Origin: Minisyncoccota bacterium
Lineage (GTDB): Bacteria; Patescibacteriota; Minisyncoccia; UBA6257; JAGOQP01
NCBI GenBank assembly: GCA_041674185.1
Contig: JBAYWE010000001.1
Coordinates: 893-64,892 of the forward strand
Reading direction: 5' to 3'
DNA length: 64,000 bases
Under the pieces are notes generated by a model. It was not told the DNA's origin. It saw nothing but the letters and a program-made list of their open reading frames with translations, and did no database searches. A program made the translations under genes and the position numbers. How positions within the stretch are numbered: position 1 is the first letter of the stretch; each line of letters begins with the position of its first letter. This document shows positions 15,047 to 23,164 of this stretch, piece by piece.

Positions 15047-18000
15047 TTATTTTTTTCTTGCTCCCATCCATAAACGCTTCCCGTCTAATTTGGTATCTAT
15101 CTCTGCATCAAATTTTTCCATCTTTCCAATGGTAAGGACACGAGCCCCCACTTCCTTCTTAATAAATGCTTCGTGTATGCGTACCATTGCTTCAATATCC
15201 GAGGTACTTGAGAGTGCAAGAATAATACTATCCTTGGGTACGTATCCGGCATCTTGGCGTAATTCTTGTACTGCCCGAGTCAACTCACGCAATAATCCCT
15301 CCGTTTTTAACTCAGGAGTAATAGTAGTATCAAGAATAAACATCTCTCCATCAACAAGCTCTGAAGAGAAGGTAATTTCTTTTACATTCACTTCATCACG
15401 AATAATTTCAAGAATATCGGGAACAAAAGATCCTTTTGGTTTTTTACCTTGAAGAGTGAGTTTTGCAAGTGGTTGGCGTACTTTAATTTGTAATTCTGCT
15501 CGTTTTGCAAGAACACTACTCGCTATATCACGCGCCCACGACATAACCGATACTAATCCCTCATCAGAAGCTTTTATCTTAAATGTAGGAACAAGTTCTA
15601 AATGAACAGAATCCTTTTTTGAGAAACTATGATCTTTTTTAAGCGATTGATAAATACTCTCTGCAAAAAATGGAGTAAAGGGAGCAATTATTTTTGAAAA
15701 TTGAAGCAGTGTATAGGCTAAAACCTGAGAAGCACTTTGTAGATCTTTTATATTTTCTGGTTTTTGGAATCGACGACGTGAACGACGAATATACCATCGA
15801 GAAAGATCATCAATAAAAGATTCAATAGCAATAGTTGCCTTCGTAAGATCATACATATCCATGTTAGTAGTCACTTCACGCGTCATAAGAGCAAGACGCA
15901 CAAGAATCCATCTATCTAATACATACGGAGTAGAAGGCATATCAATAAGATTTCTTTTATCTAATCCATACATTTGCAAAAATGCAAACGAATTATAGAT
16001 AACCATAAGCGTACGACGAAATGCCTTTCCCACCTCCTCTTCATCAAAATTCTTTGGATCTCCTGGCGCATTGACGGTATAAAAATACCACCGAATAGAA
16101 TCCACTCCATATTTTTGTATTAAAGCCCACGGATCAACAATATTTCCTTTTGACTTAGACATTTTTTGTCCATGTTTATCATGAATAAGTCCCAAACAAA
16201 TAACATTTTTATACGGAGTAGGAAGATCTAATGCGGTCGCAACAGCAAGAAGCGTATAAAACCACCCTCGAGTTTGATCCACTGCTTCAGAAATATAATC
16301 AGCGGGATACAGTTCTGGTTTTGATATCTTCTGTGACTTTGAATTCTTTTGAGCAAAGGGAAAGTGTCCTTGTGCAAACGGCATGGATCCCGAATCAAAC
16401 CAAACGTCGGCAACTTCTTTTACTCGACGCATGGGCGCATGACATTTTTCACATGCAAAAGTAATCTCATCAATATACGGACGATGTAAATCCCCCAACC
16501 CCTGTTCATTTCGAGGAAAAGGAACAAAAGAAACATCCATACTCTGCGCAGTTTTTATAAAATCACCCCCTCTCTGTTTCTTATACGTAATGCTTTCTTC
16601 TTGACTCTTTCCCGAAAGAACTGACTCAAGCATCCATAATGGATACTCATGACTCACCACAAGAACATTTTTACCGGCATATTTCTTCTCAATATCTTTC
16701 ACAAAATCATACATACGTGCAGCAACAGCTATAAGCGCTTCTCCTTTTTCTGGGAATTTTAGAAATCGATCCTCGTAGGTAGGAAAGAGAGCATCATATC
16801 GATCAACCGACTGCCCCTCAAGTTCTCCTAGGTATATCTCCCGCAATCGTTTATCAAAAACTACTTTTGCTCCCGTGAACTGTGAGACAATTTCAGCAGT
16901 TTGATGAGTACGATAAAGATCAGAAGAAATAATAATATCAATATGCTTCTGTACAAGTTTCTGAGCAGTTCGCTTTACATCCCCTATTCCCTTTTTAGTA
17001 AGAGGAAATTGTACACTCTTTTTTACATCACCGCTAATAATGTGTTTCGTGTTATGGAGTGCTCCTCCATGACGCATCAGTATGAATCGAGTCATACTTT
17101 TAGGTTGTGTAGCAATTAATTCTTCTTTCGATCCCAAAACCTGAATGTGGGTACAGTGGGTGCATCGCCACACCGGGAGTGGAGTCCCCCAGTACCGTTC
17201 ACGAGAAAAATTCCAATCTTTTACCTCCTTGAGCCATTCTCCAAATCGCCCCTGCTTAATATGACTCGGAACCCAGTTCACAGACTCGTTTGAAGCAATA
17301 AGTTTCTTTTTCAGTTGAGTCATCTCCACAAACCATGAGGTGCGCGCATAATATAACAAGGGAGTTCCACAACGCCAACAATACGGATATTCATGTTCAT
17401 ATGGAACAGTAGATACGAGCCTCTTTTGTTTTTCAAGGTATTCAAAAATAATTTTCTCAGTTTCATTACTTTTCACAAACCGTCCTGCAAGATCAGGAAC
17501 ACCTTTTATAAATTTGCCCGCTTCATCTACGGTATGATACTGGGGTAATCCTATTTTTTTACCCAATGTATAGTCATCCTCTCCATACATAACTGCGGTA
17601 TGCACAACCCCTGTTCCATCAGTCGTAGTAACAAAATCAGCGCTATATACTTTATATGCGGTCTCTGATTTTTTGAATTCCGCAATATCAAACAAAGGTT
17701 CATATGAAAGACCCACAAGATTTTTTCCTAAAATATTCTTATGTATAGTTTCAATTTGTTCATGAGGAAACACAGCACGAACCAACTCTGACGCAATAAC
17801 ATATAATTCAGATTTTCCATCTACACGAATCACATCGTATGAAATATCCTCTCCCACAGCTAACGCAACATTTCCTGGAAGTGTCCACGGCGTTGTCGTC
17901 CACGAAAGAATATAGGTATTCTCTCCTATGTGAATTTGCTTGTTGTTTATTGCTTGTTGTTTGTTATTTACAAGAAGTTTAAACTTTATATATACCGATT

Positions 18001-18613
18001 TATCAGTCACTGTTTTATAACCCTGTGCGATTTCATGGGAAGAAAGAGCGGTTCCGCAACGAGGACACCACGGTACCACTTTATGTCCTTCATAAAGAAG
18101 CCCCTTGAGCGACAACTGTTTAATAATCCACCATAATGACTCTATATAGGTATTGTGATAGGTAACATACGGATCTTCCATATCTAACCAAAATCCAATA
18201 CGCTCAGTTAGTTTTTCAAACTCAGATTTATGCACCCCAGCCGATTCTCTGCACTTTTGATTAAAAGCAGAAATACCATACGCCTCAATATCTTTTTTAG
18301 AAGAAAGTTCTAATTGTTTTTCAACTTGTAATTCTACAGGAAGTCCATGAGTATCCCACCCAGCCTTACGGGGTACCACAAAACCTTGCATCGTTTTATA
18401 GCGGACAAAAACATCCTTAAAAACGCGCGCAAGAACATGGTGTATTCCCGGGCGTCCATTCGCCGTCGGAGGACCTTCCCAAAAATTAAACTGCTTTACT
18501 TTTTTTCCTTTTGCAGGAGTTATTGATTTTTTAAAAATCCCCCGCTCTTTCCAAAGTGCGAGTACTTTTTCCTCTATTTCAGGGAGGTTGAATGATTTGA
18601 TGTTTCGTAACAT
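15047..18613 (-). CDS. ileS: Isoleucine--tRNA ligase (type 2) with an inserted histidine-phosphatase (PGAM-like) domain
   Basis: Class I HIGH motif (PPTANGRPGIHHV), KMSKS (KMSKSKGN), CP1 editing region and C-terminal anticodon-binding region. Start placed at ATG 18613 (MLRNIKSFNLPEIEE), not the ORF-track 18784 whose first 57 codons are low-complexity. About 180 aa between VLGS..EEL and DLHRP carry the RHG...R...SHE histidine phosphatase motifs. Confidence 0.9.
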   Translation of the reverse strand: MLRNIKSFNLPEIEEKVLALWKERGIFKKSITPAKGKKVKQFNFWEGPPTANGRPGIHHVLARVFKDVFVRYKTMQGFVVPRKAGWDTHGLPVELQVEKQLELSSKKDIEAYGISAFNQKCRESAGVHKSEFEKLTERIGFWLDMEDPYVTYHNTYIESLWWIIKQLSLKGLLYEGHKVVPWCPRCGTALSSHEIAQGYKTVTDKSVYIKFKLLVNNKQQAINNKQIHIGENTYILSWTTTPWTLPGNVALAVGEDISYDVIRVDGKSELYVIASELVRAVFPHEQIETIHKNILGKNLVGLSYEPLFDIAEFKKSETAYKVYSADFVTTTDGTGVVHTAVMYGEDDYTLGKKIGLPQYHTVDEAGKFIKGVPDLAGRFVKSNETEKIIFEYLEKQKRLVSTVPYEHEYPYCWRCGTPLLYYARTSWFVEMTQLKKKLIASNESVNWVPSHIKQGRFGEWLKEVKDWNFSRERYWGTPLPVWRCTHCTHIQVLGSKEELIATQPKSMTRFILMRHGGALHNTKHIISGDVKKSVQFPLTKKGIGDVKRTAQKLVQKHIDIIISSDLYRTHQTAEIVSQFTGAKVVFDKRLREIYLGELEGQSVDRYDALFPTYEDRFLKFPEKGEALIAVAARMYDFVKDIEKKYAGKNVLVVSHEYPLWMLESVLSGKSQEESITYKKQRGGDFIKTAQSMDVSFVPFPRNEQGLGDLHRPYIDEITFACEKCHAPMRRVKEVADVWFDSGSMPFAQGHFPFAQKNSKSQKISKPELYPADYISEAVDQTRGWFYTLLAVATALDLPTPYKNVICLGLIHDKHGQKMSKSKGNIVDPWALIQKYGVDSIRWYFYTVNAPGDPKNFDEEEVGKAFRRTLMVIYNSFAFLQMYGLDKRNLIDMPSTPYVLDRWILVRLALMTREVTTNMDMYDLTKATIAIESFIDDLSRWYIRRSRRRFQKPENIKDLQSASQVLAYTLLQFSKIIAPFTPFFAESIYQSLKKDHSFSKKDSVHLELVPTFKIKASDEGLVSVMSWARDIASSVLAKRAELQIKVRQPLAKLTLQGKKPKGSFVPDILEIIRDEVNVKEITFSSELVDGEMFILDTTITPELKTEGLLRELTRAVQELRQDAGYVPKDSIILALSSTSDIEAMVRIHEAFIKKEVGARVLTIGKMEKFDAEIDTKLDGKRLWMGARKK

Positions 18614-18666
18614 ATAGAACTTCACTATACAAAAAAAAGGAGGAGAAGTGAAGTAAAATAAAAATA

Positions 18667-19749
18667 TTGACACATATAAATAAAAGATGTACGTTAAACA
18701 CACCAAAAAATAACGGAGGCACCTTGAAAATTTTAGTAGATGAAAAGAGAGCGGTTGAGGTCTTTTCAAAATTAGTAGAGGCATTTAAAAATAAACTGCC
18801 TCCCTATGATACTGCACCACTCCCTCAGATACTCACCCCCACACAGATACAAAAGAAATCCGCAGAACATGCACGATTTCTATTCTGTTGTTGTTACTAT
18901 ATGCGCGGAGGTATTCGAAGTGATACAGCTATGAAAAGTTTAGCGGTATTATACGAAAACCATCCTGAATATTTTGATTCAGCGTATGTCGCACAAGCAG
19001 ATGAAAAATCACTACTCCAGTCTTTAAAACAACATCTGCAGGAAGTGAAGCTGAATTATAACGCAAGTGTAATACCACAGTTTTGGATTGATAATTTCAA
19101 AAAAATCAATACATTTTGGGGTGATAATCCAGCACAACTCATTCAAGATGCGGATTATGAAGAAATCACAGAACGCATTATGAATAGCGGAAAAATAAAA
19201 TCAGAAAATCCACATGGATTCTTTGGTTTTAGAGAAAAAATGGTCAGTATGATCATTTATTTTCTCGTAGATGCGGAATTTATAGATCCTCTACATTTTC
19301 CTGTGCCCATTGATTTCCACGCATTGAGAATCATAACGGCACACGAAATTCTTGATACAGAAACAAATACCAAAACAAATATTCTTTCACCAGAATATTT
19401 ACAAGCGGCGCGAGATATATCAGTGAAATTCTGCTTAGAACACAATGAAAGCCCACTCGACTTATGTGGCGCATTGTGGCTTCTCTCACGTACGTGGTGT
19501 AGCCTTCACCCAGGAAATGCAAGTGAAGTTGGTATATATCACGGAAGGAAAACTCACATAGGAGTTTCAAAAAAAAGTAGGTGGACGCAGAAGAACGCAT
19601 TCACTTATGAGGCAACGTGTGGAAGATGTCCTATAGAAAAAACGTGTAAGTATCTCATACCAGCAGGATATTATTACCGACAAGGAAAGATAATTATCCG
19701 CGGAGAAAGAAATAACCATCCACAACTCAATCTCTTTTCAACAAAATAG
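18667..19749 (+). CDS. Hypothetical protein, possible HhH-GPD (endonuclease III-like) base-excision repair fold
   Basis: 360 aa. PVPIDFHALRI resembles the VDTHVxR catalytic segment of HhH-GPD glycosylases. Cys cluster near the C-terminus (CGRCPIEKTC). ORF-track start is TTG; start uncertain. Confidence 0.35.
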   Translation: MTHINKRCTLNTPKNNGGTLKILVDEKRAVEVFSKLVEAFKNKLPPYDTAPLPQILTPTQIQKKSAEHARFLFCCCYYMRGGIRSDTAMKSLAVLYENHPEYFDSAYVAQADEKSLLQSLKQHLQEVKLNYNASVIPQFWIDNFKKINTFWGDNPAQLIQDADYEEITERIMNSGKIKSENPHGFFGFREKMVSMIIYFLVDAEFIDPLHFPVPIDFHALRIITAHEILDTETNTKTNILSPEYLQAARDISVKFCLEHNESPLDLCGALWLLSRTWCSLHPGNASEVGIYHGRKTHIGVSKKSRWTQKNAFTYEATCGRCPIEKTCKYLIPAGYYYRQGKIIIRGERNNHPQLNLFSTK

Positions 19750-19750
19750 C

Positions 19751-19805
19751 CCGCCACACGCGTATCATATGAAAAACATGATACGCGTGTAGACGGGCTT
19801 TTATT
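19751..19805. terminator. Bidirectional terminator hairpin between convergent genes
   Basis: Nested perfect stem gcccg..acacgcgtatcat-atgaaaaac-atgatacgcgtgt..cgggc followed by ttttatttt. Sits between the convergent genes 18667..19749 (+) and 19806..20927 (-). Confidence 0.55.
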
Positions 19806-20927
19806 TTACAACGTCACTTGAACTTGAGAAACAAGGCTGTGTGTAGTCGTCACAACTTCTTTTCCATGAGCAACTATATACATACCCTTTTTATCATTAA
19901 TAACTCGCTGAAGGTGCGGAATAATTCTTTCTTCTAAAAGCACTATAAGCGATTGGAATGAGTTTAGTGGTCCTCGCAAAGAAAACGGCGAATCATCCAT
20001 TCCCAGAAATCCCTGGTCAAATAAATATAAAACCTTTAAAAAATAGCGGGATTGATAATGAAATGCCTCAGAAATTTTACTATCAATAATTCGTTTTCTA
20101 TGCTCTTTCTTAAATTCTTTATCATCCTCAAGTTTAAAGAGGTTAATAAGATCTCCTTGTGAATCACGTTCGCGAAGATGCTTCCTCACAAGATCTTGAA
20201 ATTTCTTAACCGGATAATCTTGTAAGACAGCAGACACAAACCAGTCACGCAATTCTTGTCCACGAATTCTATGATCACGCAACCTTCCTAATTCACAGGC
20301 AACGCCAAAAGAAATGACATTATTTTCAGTTGCGGTTTGAATATACCGAGGGACGTTTGTGAATCGTAATGCCTGTTTTATCGTCTCAGGGGATTTCATC
20401 ATTATCCGAGAAAATTCAGCAAGAGACATGTCCTTTCTTTTATAGAATCGAAAGCATCGCGTGATGAACAAAGCTTCTTCATCTGGACGGACTGGGTCAC
20501 GCACGTTTTCAGATATTTGTAACTTGATAGCCTCCTCAGCTGAAATACCCACGCATAAAACAGCTTTAATACGATTTCTAAATTCTTTATCGTATCTTCC
20601 TTGTTCAATAAGTAATCGGGTAGCTCGAAGACGTCGTTCTCCCGCGATTAAAAAACAGTATTGTCCCTGATACAAAACGAACTGAGAATCATCAAGGTGG
20701 GTCTTAAATATCTCGCTAAAATGAGCAATGTATTTTTTCATCTCACGATAGTCGAGACAAGCAACCGTAACAGCATTAATGAGTCCATGTTCAAAAATAT
20801 TTTCCGCAAGACTAGGGATATTTTCAAATATTTTACGTATTTGCGGAAGTACATTAATTTTGAATAGAGACAGAAAGACATCCTGAGTCTTATATTGCTT
20901 TGATTTGTACTCCATGAGTTCCTCCAC
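19806..20927 (-). CDS. ParB-like nuclease domain protein
   Basis: ParB/Srx N-domain motif LIAGERRLRATRLL. 373 aa with an uncharacterised C-terminal half. Confidence 0.55.
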   Translation of the reverse strand: MEELMEYKSKQYKTQDVFLSLFKINVLPQIRKIFENIPSLAENIFEHGLINAVTVACLDYREMKKYIAHFSEIFKTHLDDSQFVLYQGQYCFLIAGERRLRATRLLIEQGRYDKEFRNRIKAVLCVGISAEEAIKLQISENVRDPVRPDEEALFITRCFRFYKRKDMSLAEFSRIMMKSPETIKQALRFTNVPRYIQTATENNVISFGVACELGRLRDHRIRGQELRDWFVSAVLQDYPVKKFQDLVRKHLRERDSQGDLINLFKLEDDKEFKKEHRKRIIDSKISEAFHYQSRYFLKVLYLFDQGFLGMDDSPFSLRGPLNSFQSLIVLLEERIIPHLQRVINDKKGMYIVAHGKEVVTTTHSLVSQVQVTL

Positions 20928-21046
20928 GGAATTATTATGAATAAAATTTTCAATATTTACTGCCTATACTCTGAAATAAAAGTGGGGAAAAAGCAAGTCT
21001 TATACAATAAAAAAGCCGGGGGTTCCCGGCTCTATAAACTTTACCT

Positions 21047-21328
21047 CTATTTCTTATCGCGGAATGGAATATACCCAAAAACGTCTTCAACTAATTTTTT
21101 TACCCAATTTACAACGGCCATAGAAATAGTTTCACCGCCTGCTGAAACAAGGAGATGGTCCTGACGTCCATGGTGGGGAACATCTTTCCCAATTACCCAT
21201 CCTCCACGAGATCCATCATTATGTCCAAGCTCCAACTCTTCATGGATAAAATGCTGTACACCATCCATATTCGTTGGTGGAACTATTGGATTATCAGAAA
21301 CAATAAATAATACATACACTTTTTTCAT
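21047..21328 (-). CDS. Hypothetical small protein
   Basis: 93-aa ORF co-oriented with and upstream of the ParB-like gene. No motif recognised. Confidence 0.25.
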   Translation of the reverse strand: MKKVYVLFIVSDNPIVPPTNMDGVQHFIHEELELGHNDGSRGGWVIGKDVPHHGRQDHLLVSAGGETISMAVVNWVKKLVEDVFGYIPFRDKK

Positions 21329-21436
21329 ACAACCACCTTTCTTATTTAGTTATAGTTATAAAATAAAAGTCTGTTTAGCTTTGATTTACTAAAATAACGA
21401 TAACACCAAAATATAATTGTGTCAATATTTAAAACA

Positions 21437-21549
21437 GCGGGGAGATTGGTCTCACCTCTCGTCGCGCCGTCGCAAAACACGAAATGCGGGGAGATTTCAC
21501 GTCGTTACACCACTCTTCTTTAAAAATTAGGCGGGGAGATTTCACGTCG
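21437..21549. repeat. Three degenerate direct copies of the tmRNA 3'-end segment (att-like scars): gcggggagatt at 21437-21447, gcggggagatttcacgtcg at 21486-21504 and 21531-21549
   Basis: The 11-mer gcggggagatt is the reverse complement of the tmRNA T-arm/acceptor 3' half (AAUCUCCCCGC). A fourth, genuine copy lies inside ssrA at 21718-21728. The two 19-mers are identical and 26 nt apart. Confidence 0.5.
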
Positions 21550-21673
21550 CACTTCGTGCTCTTTAGAAACCCTCGGTTTCTAACATCCTTCGGATTGTTT
21601 TCCTACACGGTGAACTACAAGTTCCCCGACCCCCTCCGATTCAATCTCCCTAACACCGTCCACTTTATTACCA

Positions 21674-21710
21674 AACAAAAACACCCAACAAGTGGGTGTT
21701 TTTGTTTGGT
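21674..21710 (-). terminator. Perfect 16-bp stem hairpin immediately 3' of tmRNA
   Basis: ccaaacaaaaacaccc-aacaagt-gggtgtttttgtttgg, abutting the ssrA 3' end at 21713. Confidence 0.45.
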
Positions 21711-21712
21711 AG

Positions 21713-22037
21713 TGGAGGCGGGGAGATTGAACTCCCGTCCATAGATATCTTCAAAAACCGTCTACACGCTTAGTTGATAAACAACAATGATTTAGTTCTA
21801 TGTTTAACCATGATCTACGAACCACTCAACCATAGCGATTCTCATATATAACACCGGTAAAATCCCTATGAGAAATCGGGGACCGATGCCTTTCATAAAA
21901 GAAAGGATAACCCGTGTTCGTTCTTAGGCAAACGCGAGAGCCATAGGTTTGGCAATTATTGGTTTGATTGGTTTACAAGACAATCGGCTTGGCATGCAAG
22001 TTTTCAAAGGAGTACCTCTGTCAAAGCGTACGCCCCC
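21713..22037 (-). ncRNA. ssrA: tmRNA (SsrA), ~325 nt
   Basis: Minus-strand 5' end GGGGGCGUACGCUUUGACAGAGG...UUGCAUGCC (matches the conserved tmRNA GCAUGCC region). 3' end GGACGGGAGUUCAAUCUCCCCGCCUCCAC(U)A has a tRNA-like T-arm and an acceptor with G3-U. Internal tag ORF GCC AAA CCU AUG GCU CUC GCG UUU GCC UAA (AKPMALAFA*) at 21924-21953. smpB is immediately upstream on the same strand. Confidence 0.75.
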
Positions 22038-22618: not shown

Positions 22619-23164
22619 ATGAATCACTTCTTCAACAAAGAAGACTTAGATTTAAAAACTGTATTTACCCAAAGCTTAAGCACCGTTCTTAAATGGGATA
22701 ACCACAGGAAAAACGGTACGTATATAGAAGAAATCTCGAAAACCAACCTTGTTTCGTTCAACTTCTTGAAAGAATTTTTAAAGACAGCCTTAGTAGGATT
22801 ATCAATATTAGAAAAATTCTCCCTACGAAACTCTTTTGAAGGAAGCCTTGAAGGAGGAGAACAGGAAATAAAAATTCTAAACACAGATCAGCAACATGCT
22901 ATTCTTGATCTATATGAACTAGTGGGAAAAGAAAGAGAAAAAGAATTGAATTATTACAGAGAAAAGATTATTAGTCTCCTCACTATAGTTCAAATTATCC
23001 ATACCCAAATCAGAACAAAAGAAATCCCAGATGTATCTCCTTTACTCGGCGGATTGTGGTTCTGTGTTGACGAAAAAGGATTTATAGAAACTATCTCGGG
23101 ACCACAGCTTCTAGAAAAAAACATTGAAAAATTAAAACATTTCTTAGCAAAAGAGGAATTATAA
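22619..23164 (+). CDS. Hypothetical protein
   Basis: 181-aa ORF with no recognisable motif. Sits between smpB and infC. Confidence 0.35.
   Translation: MNHFFNKEDLDLKTVFTQSLSTVLKWDNHRKNGTYIEEISKTNLVSFNFLKEFLKTALVGLSILEKFSLRNSFEGSLEGGEQEIKILNTDQQHAILDLYELVGKEREKELNYYREKIISLLTIVQIIHTQIRTKEIPDVSPLLGGLWFCVDEKGFIETISGPQLLEKNIEKLKHFLAKEEL

What the first reader, a model, noticed from the sequence alone, without database searches (positions are those of the whole stretch)
18614..21328. Possible remnant genomic islet next to ssrA: HhH-GPD-like protein plus ParB-like nuclease-domain protein plus small ORF
Between ileS and the att-like scars lie three non-housekeeping genes. The first is a 360-aa protein with an endonuclease-III-like VDTH-type segment (PVPIDFHALRI) and a C-terminal Cys cluster. 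The second is a 373-aa ParB/Srx-nuclease-domain protein (IAGERRLRATRL) with an unknown C-terminal half. The third is a 93-aa ORF. ParB-like nuclease proteins and DNA-glycosylase-like proteins are recurrent in DNA-modification and anti-phage modules and in mobile elements. Their position at an ssrA integration hotspot suggests horizontally acquired cargo, possibly a two-component DNA-targeting system.
Basis: inference. Interest (0 to 1): 0.5.

Follow-up and report, generated by a model that had tools for sequence, protein, structure and literature searches.

The report
Fe-S DNA glycosylase beside ParB paralogue
These are two native genes of a small-genome Patescibacteria (CPR) bacterium, not the remains of a mobile island at the tmRNA gene: an unannotated endonuclease-III/AGOG-like iron-sulfur DNA glycosylase and a divergent ParB-type DNA-clamp paralogue that recurs beside it across the phylum.

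Summary
The three ORFs and the quoted motifs are present as described.

**ORF1** (18724-19749, +; the TTG at 18667 is probably the -35 box).
- A Lys and four Cys (C-x39-C-x2-C-x5-C) are invariant and the Asp is at least 90% conserved in 118 diverse relatives.
- No Pfam, NCBIfam, PADLOC or PHROG model covers it.
- The family has at least 846 clusters at 50% identity, and all but one of the 68 genome records are named as, or are unclassified alongside, Patescibacteria.

**ORF2** (19806-20927, -).
- It is a true but divergent ParB: N-terminal domain plus HTH, with boxes I-III intact.
- It has no ParA neighbour and no ParB_C match.
- It evolves much faster than neighbouring genes.

**Island reading: not supported.**
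- Composition is native.
- The copies of the ssrA 3' end do not bracket the genes.
- There is no integrase.
- The layout is syntenic in relatives.
- The family is not linked to tRNA or tmRNA genes and was not found in viral contigs.

**Functional link: supported by context only.**
- A ParB-like gene lies within 800 bp of the glycosylase in 15 of 68 species loci, in four orientations and many clades.
- An unrelated protein with a D..ExK motif takes that place in 14 other loci. No locus has both.
- One close relative keeps ParB but lacks the glycosylase.

Verdict: a new family-level variant of a known enzyme kind, with a possibly new partnership.

The parts
18724..19749 (+). P1: a 341-aa protein (360 aa if read from TTG 18667) with an HhH-superfamily DNA glycosylase fold. 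It carries a GFxGFxEK hairpin with an invariant Lys (K191 in 360-aa numbering), PVPIDFHALR with D216, invariant W271, and four invariant Cys (C278-x39-C318-x2-C321-x5-C327) predicted to bind a [4Fe-4S] cluster.
   Evidence: - AF2 model: pLDDT 91.4.
- Conservation.
- hhalign register to E. coli Nth.
- No curated family model matches it.
- Start site.
18662..18695 (+). Promoter-like region for P1: TTGACA at 18667-18672, a 17-nt spacer ending in TG, then TACGTT. Positions 18662-18681 are 85% identical to the region of the 93-aa ORF's promoter-like site (inverted copy at 21411-21430).
   Evidence: (inverted repeat I5). This is a reading of the sequence, not a tested promoter.
19735..19811 (.). Long hairpin between the convergent stops of P1 and the ParB-like gene, T-rich on both sides. 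It looks like a bidirectional terminator, so the two genes are separate transcription units here.
   Evidence: (I1).
19806..20927 (-). Divergent ParB paralogue, 373 aa.
- N-terminal ParB/Srx NTP-binding domain with box I (PQIR), box II (GERRLRA) and box III (ENVRD).
- A family-specific insertion of about 30-35 aa.
- A ParB-type HTH domain.
- About 115 aa of low-confidence helical C-terminus with no ParB_C match.
   Evidence: - NCBIfam parB_part 1.3e-6 and sub-threshold Pfam matches.
- Family profile against solved ParB/Spo0J/Noc structures: E 1e-19 to 1e-12.
- Foldseek top hits: Noc, ParB-CDP, KorB.
- Alignment A2.
- AF2 pLDDT 70, with residues 258-319 below 50.
21047..21328 (-). 93-aa lineage-restricted orphan gene with its own promoter-like site, ribosome-binding site and terminator. 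Function unknown.
   Evidence: - Only one other protein cluster among 5.8 billion (70% identity), at the same position in relative L077.
- Absent from relative L001, where an unrelated 149-aa ORF sits.
- No family hits.
- Terminator at 21033-21012 and promoter-like site at 21425-21397.
21437..21549 (+). Three partial direct copies of the antisense ssrA 3' end (GCGGGGAGATT...) at 21437, 21486 and 21531. They are context only and do not bracket the three ORFs.
   Evidence: Similar arrays lie downstream of ssrA in the relatives L001 (one copy, 17 nt) and L077 (four copies).
21710..22037 (-). ssrA (tmRNA), tag peptide AKPMALAFA. It is followed by a perfect 19-bp hairpin at 21669-21711. Context only.
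   Evidence: I3.

Best explanation
The region holds native, long-resident chromosomal genes of a Patescibacteria (Ca. Paceibacterota) genome, not island cargo.

**P1.** It founds or belongs to an uncurated, essentially Patescibacteria-restricted family of helix-hairpin-helix DNA glycosylases.
- It has an AGOG/endonuclease-III-like core.
- Its Lys and Asp sit where bifunctional glycosylase/AP-lyases have theirs.
- It has an endonuclease-III/MutY-type four-Cys [4Fe-4S] site. The loop between the first two cysteines is expanded from 6 to 39 residues and is strongly basic.
- Inferred mechanism: it binds duplex DNA through the hairpin and the basic Fe-S loop region, flips a damaged or modified base into the pocket lined by the invariant Trp, cleaves the N-glycosidic bond with the Asp, and probably nicks the AP site through a Lys Schiff base.

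**The ParB-like neighbour.** It is a specialised paralogue of the ParB/Noc/KorB DNA-clamp family. It has intact nucleotide-binding boxes and an HTH, but no ParA and no canonical dimerisation domain.
- It is functionally tied to the glycosylase.
- Most likely it acts as a DNA-loading or licensing factor, or as a regulator. Other ParB-superfamily NTPases are required for base-flipping enzymes on dsDNA in this way (DpdB for DpdA, phage ParB for a thymine dioxygenase).

**Status of the steps.**
- Shown here: the folds, the conserved residues, native composition, synteny and the recurrent adjacency.
- Inferred: the substrate, lyase activity, cluster binding and the nature of the coupling.
For: **Fold of P1**
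- AF2 pLDDT 91.4.

**Sequence links**
- 8 of 38 members give sub-threshold Pfam AGOG hits (best E 6e-4). Three match WhiB, a family I recall as an Fe-S protein with a Cys motif of this spacing, and one the EndoIII Fe-S domain.
- The family profile hits Pa-AGOG 1xqo over PVPVDFHVLR.
- hhalign puts K191 on Nth K120, D216 on D138 and C318/321/327 on C194/197/203.

**Conservation and charge**
- In 118 representatives of separate 50% clusters, the Lys, the Trp and all four Cys are invariant. The Asp, the His and the GFxGF hairpin are at least 90% conserved.
- Family median pI is 9.0. The Cys-rich C-terminal 83 aa has 14 K/R against 4 D/E.

**ParB-like**
- Profile against solved ParB/Spo0J/Noc: E 8.6e-19 to 2.8e-12 over the N-domain and HTH. 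Foldseek agrees. Boxes I-III are conserved.
- Other Patescibacteria carry canonical parA-parB operons with Pfam E of about 1e-30 and a ParB_C domain. This supports paralogue status.

**Native rather than island**.

**Linkage**
- A ParB-like gene lies within 800 bp of P1 in 15 of 68 species-level loci, in four orientations. These loci are scattered over the P1 tree and occur in both Saccharimonadia and Paceibacteria.
- It is the commonest neighbour.

**Precedents**: PMC10164549 (DpdB ATPase required for DpdA) and PMC13229309 (ParB activator required on dsDNA).
Against: - No activity, cluster or DNA-binding data exist.
- Sequence-only support for homology is weak (hhalign probability 5%, PDB profile E 0.57). 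The assignment rests on a predicted structure.
- The single best structural match is QNG1, a nucleotide rather than DNA glycosylase.
- Only about 22% of P1 loci have the ParB-like gene adjacent.
- In the window the two genes are convergent, with separate promoters and a terminator between them.
- A close relative keeps the ParB-like gene but has no P1, so ParB-like does not depend on P1.
- I could not check whether this genome also has a canonical ParB, so the ParB-like gene could be the organism's only one.
- In the Saccharibacteria subgroup box II is GH(T/S)R rather than GERR.
- No parS-like site was found.
Confidence: 0.6

Rival explanations
1. One reading: the three genes are the decayed cargo of an integrative element that entered at the ssrA 3' end. 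They are therefore horizontally acquired, possibly a mobile two-component DNA-targeting or defence module.
For: - ssrA is clearly a recombination hotspot in this lineage. There are three partial copies of its 3' end in the window, one in L001 and four in L077.
- Gene content between ileS and ssrA varies among relatives about 80% identical in housekeeping proteins. P1 is absent in L077, and the small ORFs are swapped.
- ParB-like diverges very fast: 38-48% identity against 77-90% for neighbouring genes.
- ParB-like weakly matches phage ParB families.
Against: - All ssrA-end copies lie within about 270 bp of ssrA, on the ssrA side of the 93-aa ORF. None lies near ileS.
- No integrase or other mobility gene is present.
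- GC, GC3 and codon usage are native.
- ParB-like is at the same place in all three relatives.
- P1 loci elsewhere sit among housekeeping genes and show no tRNA or tmRNA enrichment.
- No P1 relative was found in IMG/VR.
- No PADLOC hit.
Confidence: 0.1
2. The two genes are unrelated housekeeping genes. P1 is simply the lineage's base-excision-repair glycosylase. The ParB-like protein is a chromosome-organising ParB/Noc-type protein. Their adjacency is eroding ancestral synteny with no functional meaning.
For: - In the window they are separate convergent transcription units.
- 53 of 68 loci have no ParB-like gene within 800 bp of P1.
- L077 keeps ParB-like without P1, and L007 has a ParB-like gene alone.
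- Neighbours are housekeeping genes.
- In L013 the order smpB, ParB..., P1 suggests old synteny.
Against: - The adjacency occurs in four different orientations, in different outer contexts, and in many separate clades of two classes. Passive synteny would not preserve that.
- My own estimate for a single-copy gene in a genome of about 800 genes is about 0.2 adjacent loci out of 68. The observed number is 15.
- A second, unrelated protein family occupies the same position in 14 other loci, and the two are mutually exclusive. This looks like partner swapping.
- Canonical parAB operons exist in the phylum and look quite different.
Confidence: 0.22
3. P1 is not a DNA enzyme. It is a QNG1-like nucleotide or nucleoside N-glycosylase used for base salvage by an auxotrophic epibiont.
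For: - QNG1 keeps the same Lys/Asp pair (K199/D231) and uses a Trp to stack the base (PMC9881137).
- From general knowledge, Patescibacteria depend on salvage.
Against: - P1 has an invariant EndoIII/MutY-type four-Cys motif, which is a hallmark of DNA-binding HhH glycosylases as far as I recall. In the paper 'iron' occurs nowhere in the text and QNG1 is described as metal independent.
- No Pfam match to the queuine-salvage family. The sub-threshold hits are to AGOG.
- The protein has a basic pI and a basic Fe-S region.
- Its recurrent neighbours are a DNA-binding ParB and a nuclease-like protein.
Confidence: 0.08

Closest known systems
Endonuclease III (Nth) / MutY family, HhH-GPD with a [4Fe-4S] cluster loop
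   Same: - A Lys at the start of the second hairpin helix, and an Asp in a hDxHhhR segment (PIDFHALR against AVDTHIFR).
- A Trp-Leu segment before the cluster.
- The last three Cys have identical spacing, C-x2-C-x5-C.
   Different: - No Pfam HhH-GPD or EndoIII Fe-S match at threshold.
- About 10-15% identity.
- 39 rather than 6 residues between Cys1 and Cys2.
- Lys-Asp spacing of 25 rather than 18.
- About 130 extra residues: an N-terminal extension, an insertion before the hairpin, and a conserved C-terminal YYxxG tail.
- Restricted to Patescibacteria.
AGOG (archaeal 8-oxoguanine DNA glycosylase/AP lyase, Pfam PF09171)
   Same: - It is the only family detectable by sequence. There are sub-threshold Pfam hits in 8 of 38 members, and a PDB profile hit to 1xqo over PhPVDxxhxR...W.
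- A Lys/Asp pair with long spacing.
   Different: - All scores are below the Pfam gathering threshold.
- From my own knowledge, AGOG has no Fe-S cluster.
- AGOG is about 100 aa shorter and, from its name and my own knowledge, archaeal.
QNG1 / DUF2419 queuosine-5'-monophosphate glycosylase
   Same: - Extra elements around an HhH core.
- The same Lys/Asp dyad and an aromatic base-stacking residue (PMC9881137).
   Different: - QNG1 is metal independent and monomeric and acts on a free nucleotide.
- P1 has four invariant Cys.
- P1 has no sequence match to the queuine-salvage family.
- P1 has DNA-protein neighbours.
Chromosomal ParB/Spo0J, Noc and KorB (CTP-switch DNA clamps)
   Same: - For ORF2: N-terminal domain with boxes I-III (PQxR, GERRxRA, ENxxR) and a ParB HTH.
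- Profile E about 1e-19 to solved ParBs.
   Different: - A 30-35-aa helical insertion in the N-domain.
- No ParB_C match and no adjacent ParA.
- No canonical parS in 64 kb.
- Very fast divergence.
- Canonical parAB operons of the same phylum score about 1e-30 in Pfam, against about 1e-3 for this subfamily.
ParB-superfamily helpers of DNA base-processing enzymes: DpdB-DpdA (7-deazaguanine insertion) and phage ParB-5mYOX (thymine dioxygenase)
   Same: The logic is the same: a ParB-fold NTPase encoded beside an enzyme that must flip a base out of dsDNA, and required for that enzyme's activity on dsDNA (PMC10164549, PMC13229309).
   Different: - The partner enzyme here is an HhH glycosylase, not a TGT-fold transglycosylase or a dioxygenase.
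- This ParB keeps an HTH DNA-binding domain, which the 5mYOX-associated ParBs lack.
- No PADLOC or Dpd model matches it.
- Coupling here is inferred from gene context only.

Membership tests
HhH-GPD superfamily DNA glycosylase (EndoIII/AGOG-like) | Two-lobe all-helical HhH glycosylase fold | tested here: met
   [not shown]
HhH-GPD superfamily DNA glycosylase (EndoIII/AGOG-like) | Gly-rich hairpin followed by a catalytic Asp about 20-30 residues downstream | tested here: met
   GFxGF is at least 90% conserved and D216 (D197 in 341-aa numbering) is at least 90% conserved in 118 representatives. D216 aligns to Nth D138.
HhH-GPD superfamily DNA glycosylase (EndoIII/AGOG-like) | Lys at the start of the second hairpin helix (bifunctional glycosylase/AP lyase) | tested here: met
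   K191 (K172 in 341-aa numbering) is invariant in 118 sequences and aligns to Nth K120. Lyase chemistry itself was not testable.
HhH-GPD superfamily DNA glycosylase (EndoIII/AGOG-like) | Passes a curated family model (Pfam HhH-GPD PF00730, AGOG PF09171, or NCBIfam nth/mutY) | tested here: not met
   No hit for the window protein at E up to 1. AGOG appears only below threshold in 8 of 38 relatives.
Endonuclease III/MutY Fe-S subgroup | C-x6-C-x2-C-x5-C [4Fe-4S] cluster loop | tested here: inconclusive
   Four invariant Cys are present, but the spacing is C-x39-C-x2-C-x5-C. Spatial clustering in the model and actual metal binding could not be checked.
HhH-GPD superfamily DNA glycosylase (EndoIII/AGOG-like) | N-glycosylase activity on DNA | not testable with these tools
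   Needs biochemistry.
QNG1/DUF2419 queuine salvage glycosylase | Sequence membership of the queuine-salvage family, with Q-specific Asp-x3-Trp and the C-terminal Tyr in the active site | tested here: not met
   No Pfam hit. P1 has D/E/N-x2-W, with Gly at that position in the window protein, and Fe-S cysteines that QNG1 lacks. The similarity is structural only.
ParB (CTP-switch clamp) family | ParB/Srx N-domain with box I (QxR), box II (GxRRxxA) and box III (ENxxR) | tested here: met
   Q29 and R31, G96-E-R-R99-L-R-A, and E140-N141-x-R are present. Profile E 8.6e-19 to M. xanthus ParB.
ParB (CTP-switch clamp) family | ParB-type HTH DNA-binding domain | tested here: met
   - Pfam HTH_ParB E 1.3e-3 in the window protein.
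- Above threshold in relative L074 (24.6 bits against a 22.6 cutoff).
- PDB alignments extend through the HTH.
- Foldseek matches the Noc, ParB and KorB DNA-binding domains.
ParB (CTP-switch clamp) family | C-terminal dimerisation domain (ParB_C) | tested here: not met
   No ParB_C hit, whereas canonical Patescibacteria ParBs have it. The C-terminal 115 aa is helical but low-confidence.
Chromosomal ParABS partition system | Adjacent parA and nearby parS sites | tested here: not met
   No ParA beside it in the window, L001, L004, L007 or L077. No parS within 3 mismatches in 64 kb. No shared palindrome.
Genomic island integrated at ssrA | Cargo bracketed by ssrA and a direct repeat of its 3' end | tested here: not met
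   All copies lie at 21437-21549, on the ssrA side of the three ORFs. None lies near ileS.
Genomic island integrated at ssrA | Integrase or other mobility genes | tested here: not met
   There is no such ORF between 18.6 and 21.7 kb. PHROGs matched only ParB-like families.
Genomic island integrated at ssrA | Atypical composition | tested here: not met
   GC is 0.374, 0.374 and 0.390 against a window mean of 0.382 (SD 0.023). GC3 and synonymous-codon likelihood are also typical.
Genomic island integrated at ssrA | Absent from this position in close relatives | tested here: inconclusive
   - ParB-like is present in all three relatives.
- P1 is present in two and absent without trace in L077.
- The small ORF is present in two and replaced in L001.
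Known anti-phage defence systems (PADLOC) | Match to any model of a known or candidate defence protein | tested here: not met
   No hits at E up to 1 for any of the three proteins.

The most novel reading that the evidence does not exclude
P1 is the constant component of a previously undescribed two-gene base-excision module spread across Patescibacteria. In this module an Fe-S HhH glycosylase works with one of two interchangeable partners.

- One partner is a ParB-type NTP-switch DNA clamp, as in this window. It would load on duplex DNA and license or target the glycosylase, as DpdB does for DpdA and phage ParB does for a thymine dioxygenase.
- The other partner is a PD-(D/E)xK-like nuclease.
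- The fast evolution of the ParB partner and the patchy presence of P1 would then reflect a conflict-type role, such as excising modified bases from invading or host-derived DNA, rather than routine repair.
Probability: 0.25. Interest if true: 0.7.

Novelty: new variant of a known kind. Interest (0 to 1): 0.45.

Why it matters
Patescibacteria make up a large share of bacterial diversity, have minimal genomes, and their DNA-repair equipment is poorly known.

- This work defines a sizeable, uncurated family: at least 846 clusters at 50% identity, none covered by Pfam, NCBIfam, PADLOC or PHROGs.
- The family combines an AGOG-like core with an endonuclease-III-type Fe-S site.
- It can now be annotated and tested.

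If the link to the ParB paralogue is functional, it would be a third, independent case of a ParB-fold NTPase assisting a base-flipping DNA enzyme. It would be the first such case involving a glycosylase and a ParB that keeps its HTH. That bears on what ParB-like proteins do outside chromosome segregation.

The negative result also matters. Proximity to ssrA and the presence of att-like repeats do not by themselves mark the neighbouring genes as island cargo.

Tried and rejected
- **Curated models.** Pfam, NCBIfam, PADLOC and PHROGs scans of P1 and the 93-aa ORF gave nothing.
- **Profile of P1 against PDB sequences.** Only a marginal AGOG hit, E 0.57.
- **AFDB50 fold search.** The library was unavailable, so there was no comparison with predicted structures of annotated proteins.
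- **IMG/VR scans.** The P1 profile gave no relatives. The ParB-like alignment was too divergent to scan with.
- **parS.** Canonical parS was searched with up to 3 mismatches: none. A search for shared 16-bp palindromes around the ParB-like genes of six loci found no common motif.
- **Fusions.** The longer P1 family members were checked for informative domain fusions. Only sub-threshold AGOG hits appeared, and the N-terminal extensions are unannotated.
- **tRNA/tmRNA linkage.** Across 60 loci there was no enrichment: 31 tRNA genes (about 0.5 per 12-kb locus) and 2 tmRNA genes.
- **The second neighbour family (C2).** It is unrelated to ParB by hhalign. It has no Pfam, NCBIfam or PDB match.
- **Rfam at a permissive threshold on 21300-21760.** Only hairpin-like chance hits and the ssrA end.
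- **Literature.** Searches found no description of this glycosylase family or of a ParB-glycosylase pairing in the held library.
- **A 12-nt complementarity between the P1/ParB terminator and ssrA (I7).** I judged it to be chance.

Full report
**1. What is in the sequence**

The window is from a Patescibacteria (CPR) genome. NCBI names the identical ORF2 and ORF3 products as proteins of a Candidatus Paceibacterota MAG, locus tags WC099_00090 and WC099_00095.

Three observations move the start of ORF1 to TTG 18724, giving 341 aa:
- The family alignment begins at residue 20 of the listed ORF.
- A GGAGG sits 4 nt upstream of that TTG.
- The TTG at 18667 is the first base of a TTGACA -35-like hexamer. 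The region around it is 85% identical to the region of the promoter-like site in front of the 93-aa ORF (I5).

ORF1 and ORF2 are convergent. A long, T-flanked hairpin (19735-19811) separates them, so they are not an operon here.

The 93-aa ORF has a promoter-like site matching 10 of 12 positions, an AAAGGTGG ribosome-binding site, a clean terminator (21033-21012) and typical codon usage. It is probably a real gene.

**2. ORF1 (P1) is a new family of HhH DNA glycosylase with an Fe-S-type cysteine set**

No curated library recognises it: Pfam, NCBIfam, PADLOC and PHROGs all return nothing.

Size and spread of the family:
- A word-index search found 40 clusters, unnamed or called 'hypothetical protein'. 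The two with an organism name are from Wolfebacteria and Saccharibacteria.
- An exhaustive profile search found 846 representatives of 50% clusters at E up to 1e-3, and 314 at E up to 1e-30.
- A scan of GTDB species genomes returned 68 loci. They come from Saccharibacteria, Paceibacteria, Wolfe-, Lipton-, Campbell-, Zambryski- and Falkowbacteria, Kazan and unclassified Patescibacteria, plus one bin labelled Gammaproteobacteria.

Structure:
- An AlphaFold2 model built on 38 sequences is confident: pLDDT 91.4, pTM 0.90.
- Foldseek gives the same set.

By sequence the nearest family is AGOG:
- 8 of 38 members give sub-threshold Pfam AGOG hits. Three match the WhiB model, a family I recall as an Fe-S protein with a Cys motif of this spacing, and one the EndoIII Fe-S domain.
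- Three of the ten long members scanned also match AGOG.
- The family profile weakly hits 1xqo over PVPVDFHVLR...W.

An hhalign comparison against E. coli Nth has low probability. The register is chemically sensible all the same:
- EK191MVSM aligns to RK120TANV.
- PID216FHALR aligns to AVD138THIFR.
- W271L aligns to W178L.
- C318-x2-C321-x5-C327 aligns to C194-x2-C197-x5-C203.

Conservation in 118 representatives of separate 50% clusters:
- The Lys, the Trp and all four Cys are invariant.
- The Asp, the following His and Arg, and the GFxGF hairpin are at least 90% conserved.

The first Cys sits 7 residues after the Trp, as in Nth, where the distance is 9. It is 39 residues before the second Cys, where Nth has 6. 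The inserted segment carries conserved PGN and GRxT motifs and is very basic. Family median pI is 9.0.

My reading is an active enzyme with glycosylase/AP-lyase-type residues and a [4Fe-4S] site whose 'cluster loop' is greatly expanded. Substrate and activity are inferred, not shown.

QNG1 being the top structural hit keeps a nucleotide-glycosylase alternative alive. However, QNG1 is metal independent (PMC9881137), and P1 has no sequence match to that family.

**3. ORF2 is a genuine but aberrant ParB**

- Alone, it scores only weakly: NCBIfam parB_part 1.3e-6, with Pfam ParB_N and HTH_ParB below threshold.
- A profile of 17 relatives matches solved ParB, Spo0J and Noc structures at E 8.6e-19 to 2.8e-12 across the nucleotide-binding N-domain and the HTH. 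KorB matches more weakly.
- The AF2 model (pLDDT 70; good for residues 11-257) hits Noc, CDP/CTPgS-bound ParB, Spo0J and KorB.
- Box I (PQ29xR31), box II (G96ERR99xRA) and box III (E140N141xxR) are present. A family-specific insertion of about 30-35 aa sits between box I and box II.
- In the Saccharibacteria members box II is GH(T/S)R.
- There is no ParB_C match and no adjacent ParA. There is no second ParB in the 64-kb window and no canonical parS.
- Other Patescibacteria loci fetched here contain textbook parA-parB operons. Their ParBs score about 1e-30 in Pfam and have ParB_C (L018, L022).

I therefore regard the P1-linked proteins as a separate paralogous subfamily. I could not check whether this particular genome also has a canonical ParB.

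**4. Is it an ssrA islet? The evidence says no for P1 and ParB**

- *Composition.* The three ORFs have GC 0.374, 0.374 and 0.390, GC3 0.296, 0.307 and 0.277, and synonymous-codon log-likelihoods of -1.06, -1.05 and -0.94. The means over 50 ORFs are 0.382 (SD 0.023), 0.299 (SD 0.036) and -1.055 (SD 0.073).
- *Boundaries.* The copies of the ssrA 3' end are real: GCGGGGAGATT occurs four times exactly (5 matches with one mismatch allowed, against 0.58 expected). All lie at 21437-21549, between ssrA and the 93-aa ORF. None is near ileS, so they do not bracket the genes.
- *Mobility genes.* No integrase or other mobility gene is present.
- *Synteny, relative L001/L009.* Housekeeping proteins are 77-88% identical. 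The block DUF8128, sigma factor, secF, secD, ileS, P1, ParB-like, small ORF, ssrA, smpB, infC, rpmI, rplT, NUDIX, clpB is identical in order and orientation.
- *Synteny, relative L077.* Housekeeping identity is 82-90%. The block is the same, with the ParB-like gene and a 70%-identical small ORF.
- *The wider family.* P1 sits among housekeeping genes such as tRNA synthetases, pentose-phosphate enzymes, TypA, ABC-F and UvrC. Across 60 loci there are 31 tRNA genes, about 0.5 per 12-kb locus. tmRNA occurs only in the window's own clade and, 5.5 kb away, in L013.
- *Viral contigs.* No relative was found in IMG/VR.

- L077 has no trace of P1 and carries an unrelated 93-aa ORF in its place.
- L001 has an unrelated 149-aa ORF where the window has the 93-aa ORF.
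- The 93-aa ORF family has only two clusters among 5.8 billion proteins.
- ParB-like is 38-48% identical among the three relatives, and P1 is about 64-65% identical. Flanking genes are 77-90% identical.

**5. Are the two genes linked?**

- A ParB-like ORF lies within 800 bp of P1 in 15 loci. With crude gene calls it is the immediate neighbour in 14.
- It is the most frequent neighbour by a wide margin.
- All four arrangements occur:
  - downstream convergent: the window, L009, L070, L074, L075;
  - downstream co-directional: L010, L056;
  - upstream divergent: L038, L054, L061, L063, L065, L072, L073;
  - upstream co-directional: L039.
- The outer contexts differ. In Wolfebacteria L004/L010, for example, the pair sits between a VTT-domain gene and fructose-bisphosphate aldolase.
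- The linked loci are scattered over a neighbour-joining tree of P1.

My own rough estimate for a single-copy gene in a genome of about 800 genes is about 0.2 adjacent cases in 68. Shared ancestry inflates the count, but at least seven separate clades are involved.

A second family occupies the same position:
- This unannotated family of about 250 aa ('C2', alignment A4) has invariant D..E-x-K..Q. That is a PD-(D/E)xK-like motif, which is inference only.
- It lies within 800 bp of P1 in 14 other loci, and also in L006.
- It never occurs together with the ParB-like gene.
- It is unrelated to ParB.

So 29 of 68 P1 genes have one of two mutually exclusive DNA-protein-like neighbours. This is the strongest argument that P1 works with a partner.

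Against obligatory coupling:
- 39 loci have neither neighbour.
- ParB-like genes occur without P1 (L007, L077).
- In the window the genes are transcribed separately.

**6. Most likely mechanism**

I favour (0.6) the following.
- P1 is a lineage-specific Fe-S HhH DNA glycosylase, probably a bifunctional lyase.
- The ParB paralogue is a functionally connected DNA-binding NTP switch. It either helps the enzyme engage duplex DNA or targets it to particular regions, or it acts KorB-like as a regulator.

There are two experimentally established precedents for the first role:
- DpdB is a ParB-superfamily ATPase without which DpdA cannot exchange guanine in DNA. No stable complex between them was seen (PMC10164549).
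- A phage ParB homologue is required for its cognate thymine dioxygenase specifically on dsDNA (PMC13229309).

The rival explanations are:
- unrelated housekeeping neighbours (0.22);
- island cargo (0.10);
- a QNG1-like nucleotide glycosylase (0.08).

**7. Novelty**

The enzyme kind (HhH Fe-S glycosylase) and the ParB fold are both known. Three things appear to be new:
- the family itself, which is not in Pfam, NCBIfam, PADLOC or PHROGs, and for which no description was found in the held literature;
- its architecture: an AGOG-like core, an EndoIII-type cysteines with a 39-residue loop, and a conserved YYxxG tail;
- its recurrent pairing with a ParB paralogue or a D..ExK protein.

I rate it a new variant of a known kind, with interest 0.45.

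Noticed in passing
window 21529-21668 (+), with 21669-21711: The roughly 180 nt between the innermost ssrA-end copy and ssrA is about 83% identical to relative L001, within the same HSP as ssrA itself. Flanking proteins are far more diverged.

On the plus strand the segment folds into a closed multi-hairpin structure at -38.3 kcal/mol, z = -3.3, with 0 of 200 shuffles folding as well. Its closing stem pairs the 'scar' GGGGAGAUU with AAUCUCCC, an inverted partial copy of the tmRNA T-arm, and the segment ends at the 19-bp hairpin shared with ssrA. Two of the hairpins are kept in L001, with differences in the loops or by stem extension.

It could be a small RNA convergent with ssrA rather than, or as well as, an att scar. 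L077 has a different sequence at this position. There is no Rfam match.
   Followed up: partly
L011, L012, L014, L017, L022-L025, L027, L029, L032, L044, L047, L062 (for example L017:7148-7948); also L006:7148-7903: An unannotated family of about 250 aa with invariant D..E-x-K..Q (a PD-(D/E)xK-like motif) lies within 800 bp of the glycosylase gene in 14 of 68 species loci. It is mutually exclusive with the ParB-like neighbour. It has no Pfam, NCBIfam, PHROG or PDB match.
   Followed up: partly
window 19806-20927 compared with L001:9011-10132 and L077:8438-9520: The ParB-like protein is only 38-48% identical among three relatives whose IleS, SecD, SecF, SmpB, L20, NUDIX and ClpB are 77-90% identical. 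This is unusually fast divergence for a gene fixed in position.
   Followed up: partly
window 15047-18613 (-): The isoleucyl-tRNA synthetase (about 1187 aa) carries an inserted histidine-phosphatase (His_Phos_1) domain, ...FILMRHGGALHN..., between the two halves of the catalytic domain. The same is seen in the orthologues of L001 and L077 according to precomputed Pfam hits.
   Followed up: no
window 18662-18681 (+) and 21411-21430 (-): A near-identical 20-mer, AAATATTGACACAnnTATAn, containing a TTGACA -35 box, lies upstream of both the glycosylase gene and the 93-aa orphan ORF. This could be a shared promoter type or co-regulation.
   Followed up: no
L018:1550-3293; L022:5319-6515; L013:881-2802: Canonical parA-parB (L018) or a canonical ParB with ParB_C (L022) lies 3.5-4 kb from the glycosylase gene in two further loci. 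In L013 an smpB gene is immediately followed by a 454-aa ParB, with the glycosylase 3 kb further on. This echoes the smpB, ssrA, ParB-like, P1 order of the window.
   Followed up: partly
window 22619-23164 (+): A 181-aa ORF between smpB and infC has no hit in Pfam, NCBIfam, PADLOC or PHROGs. It is nevertheless kept at the same position in both relatives (173 aa in L001, 154 aa in L077).
   Followed up: no
L054, L063, L064, L065, L072 and L039 (for example L054:7027-7596): In a group of Saccharibacteria loci the glycosylase is followed by a CobA/BtuR-type corrinoid adenosyltransferase homologue (Pfam E 1.7e-46). This is probably clade synteny.
   Followed up: no
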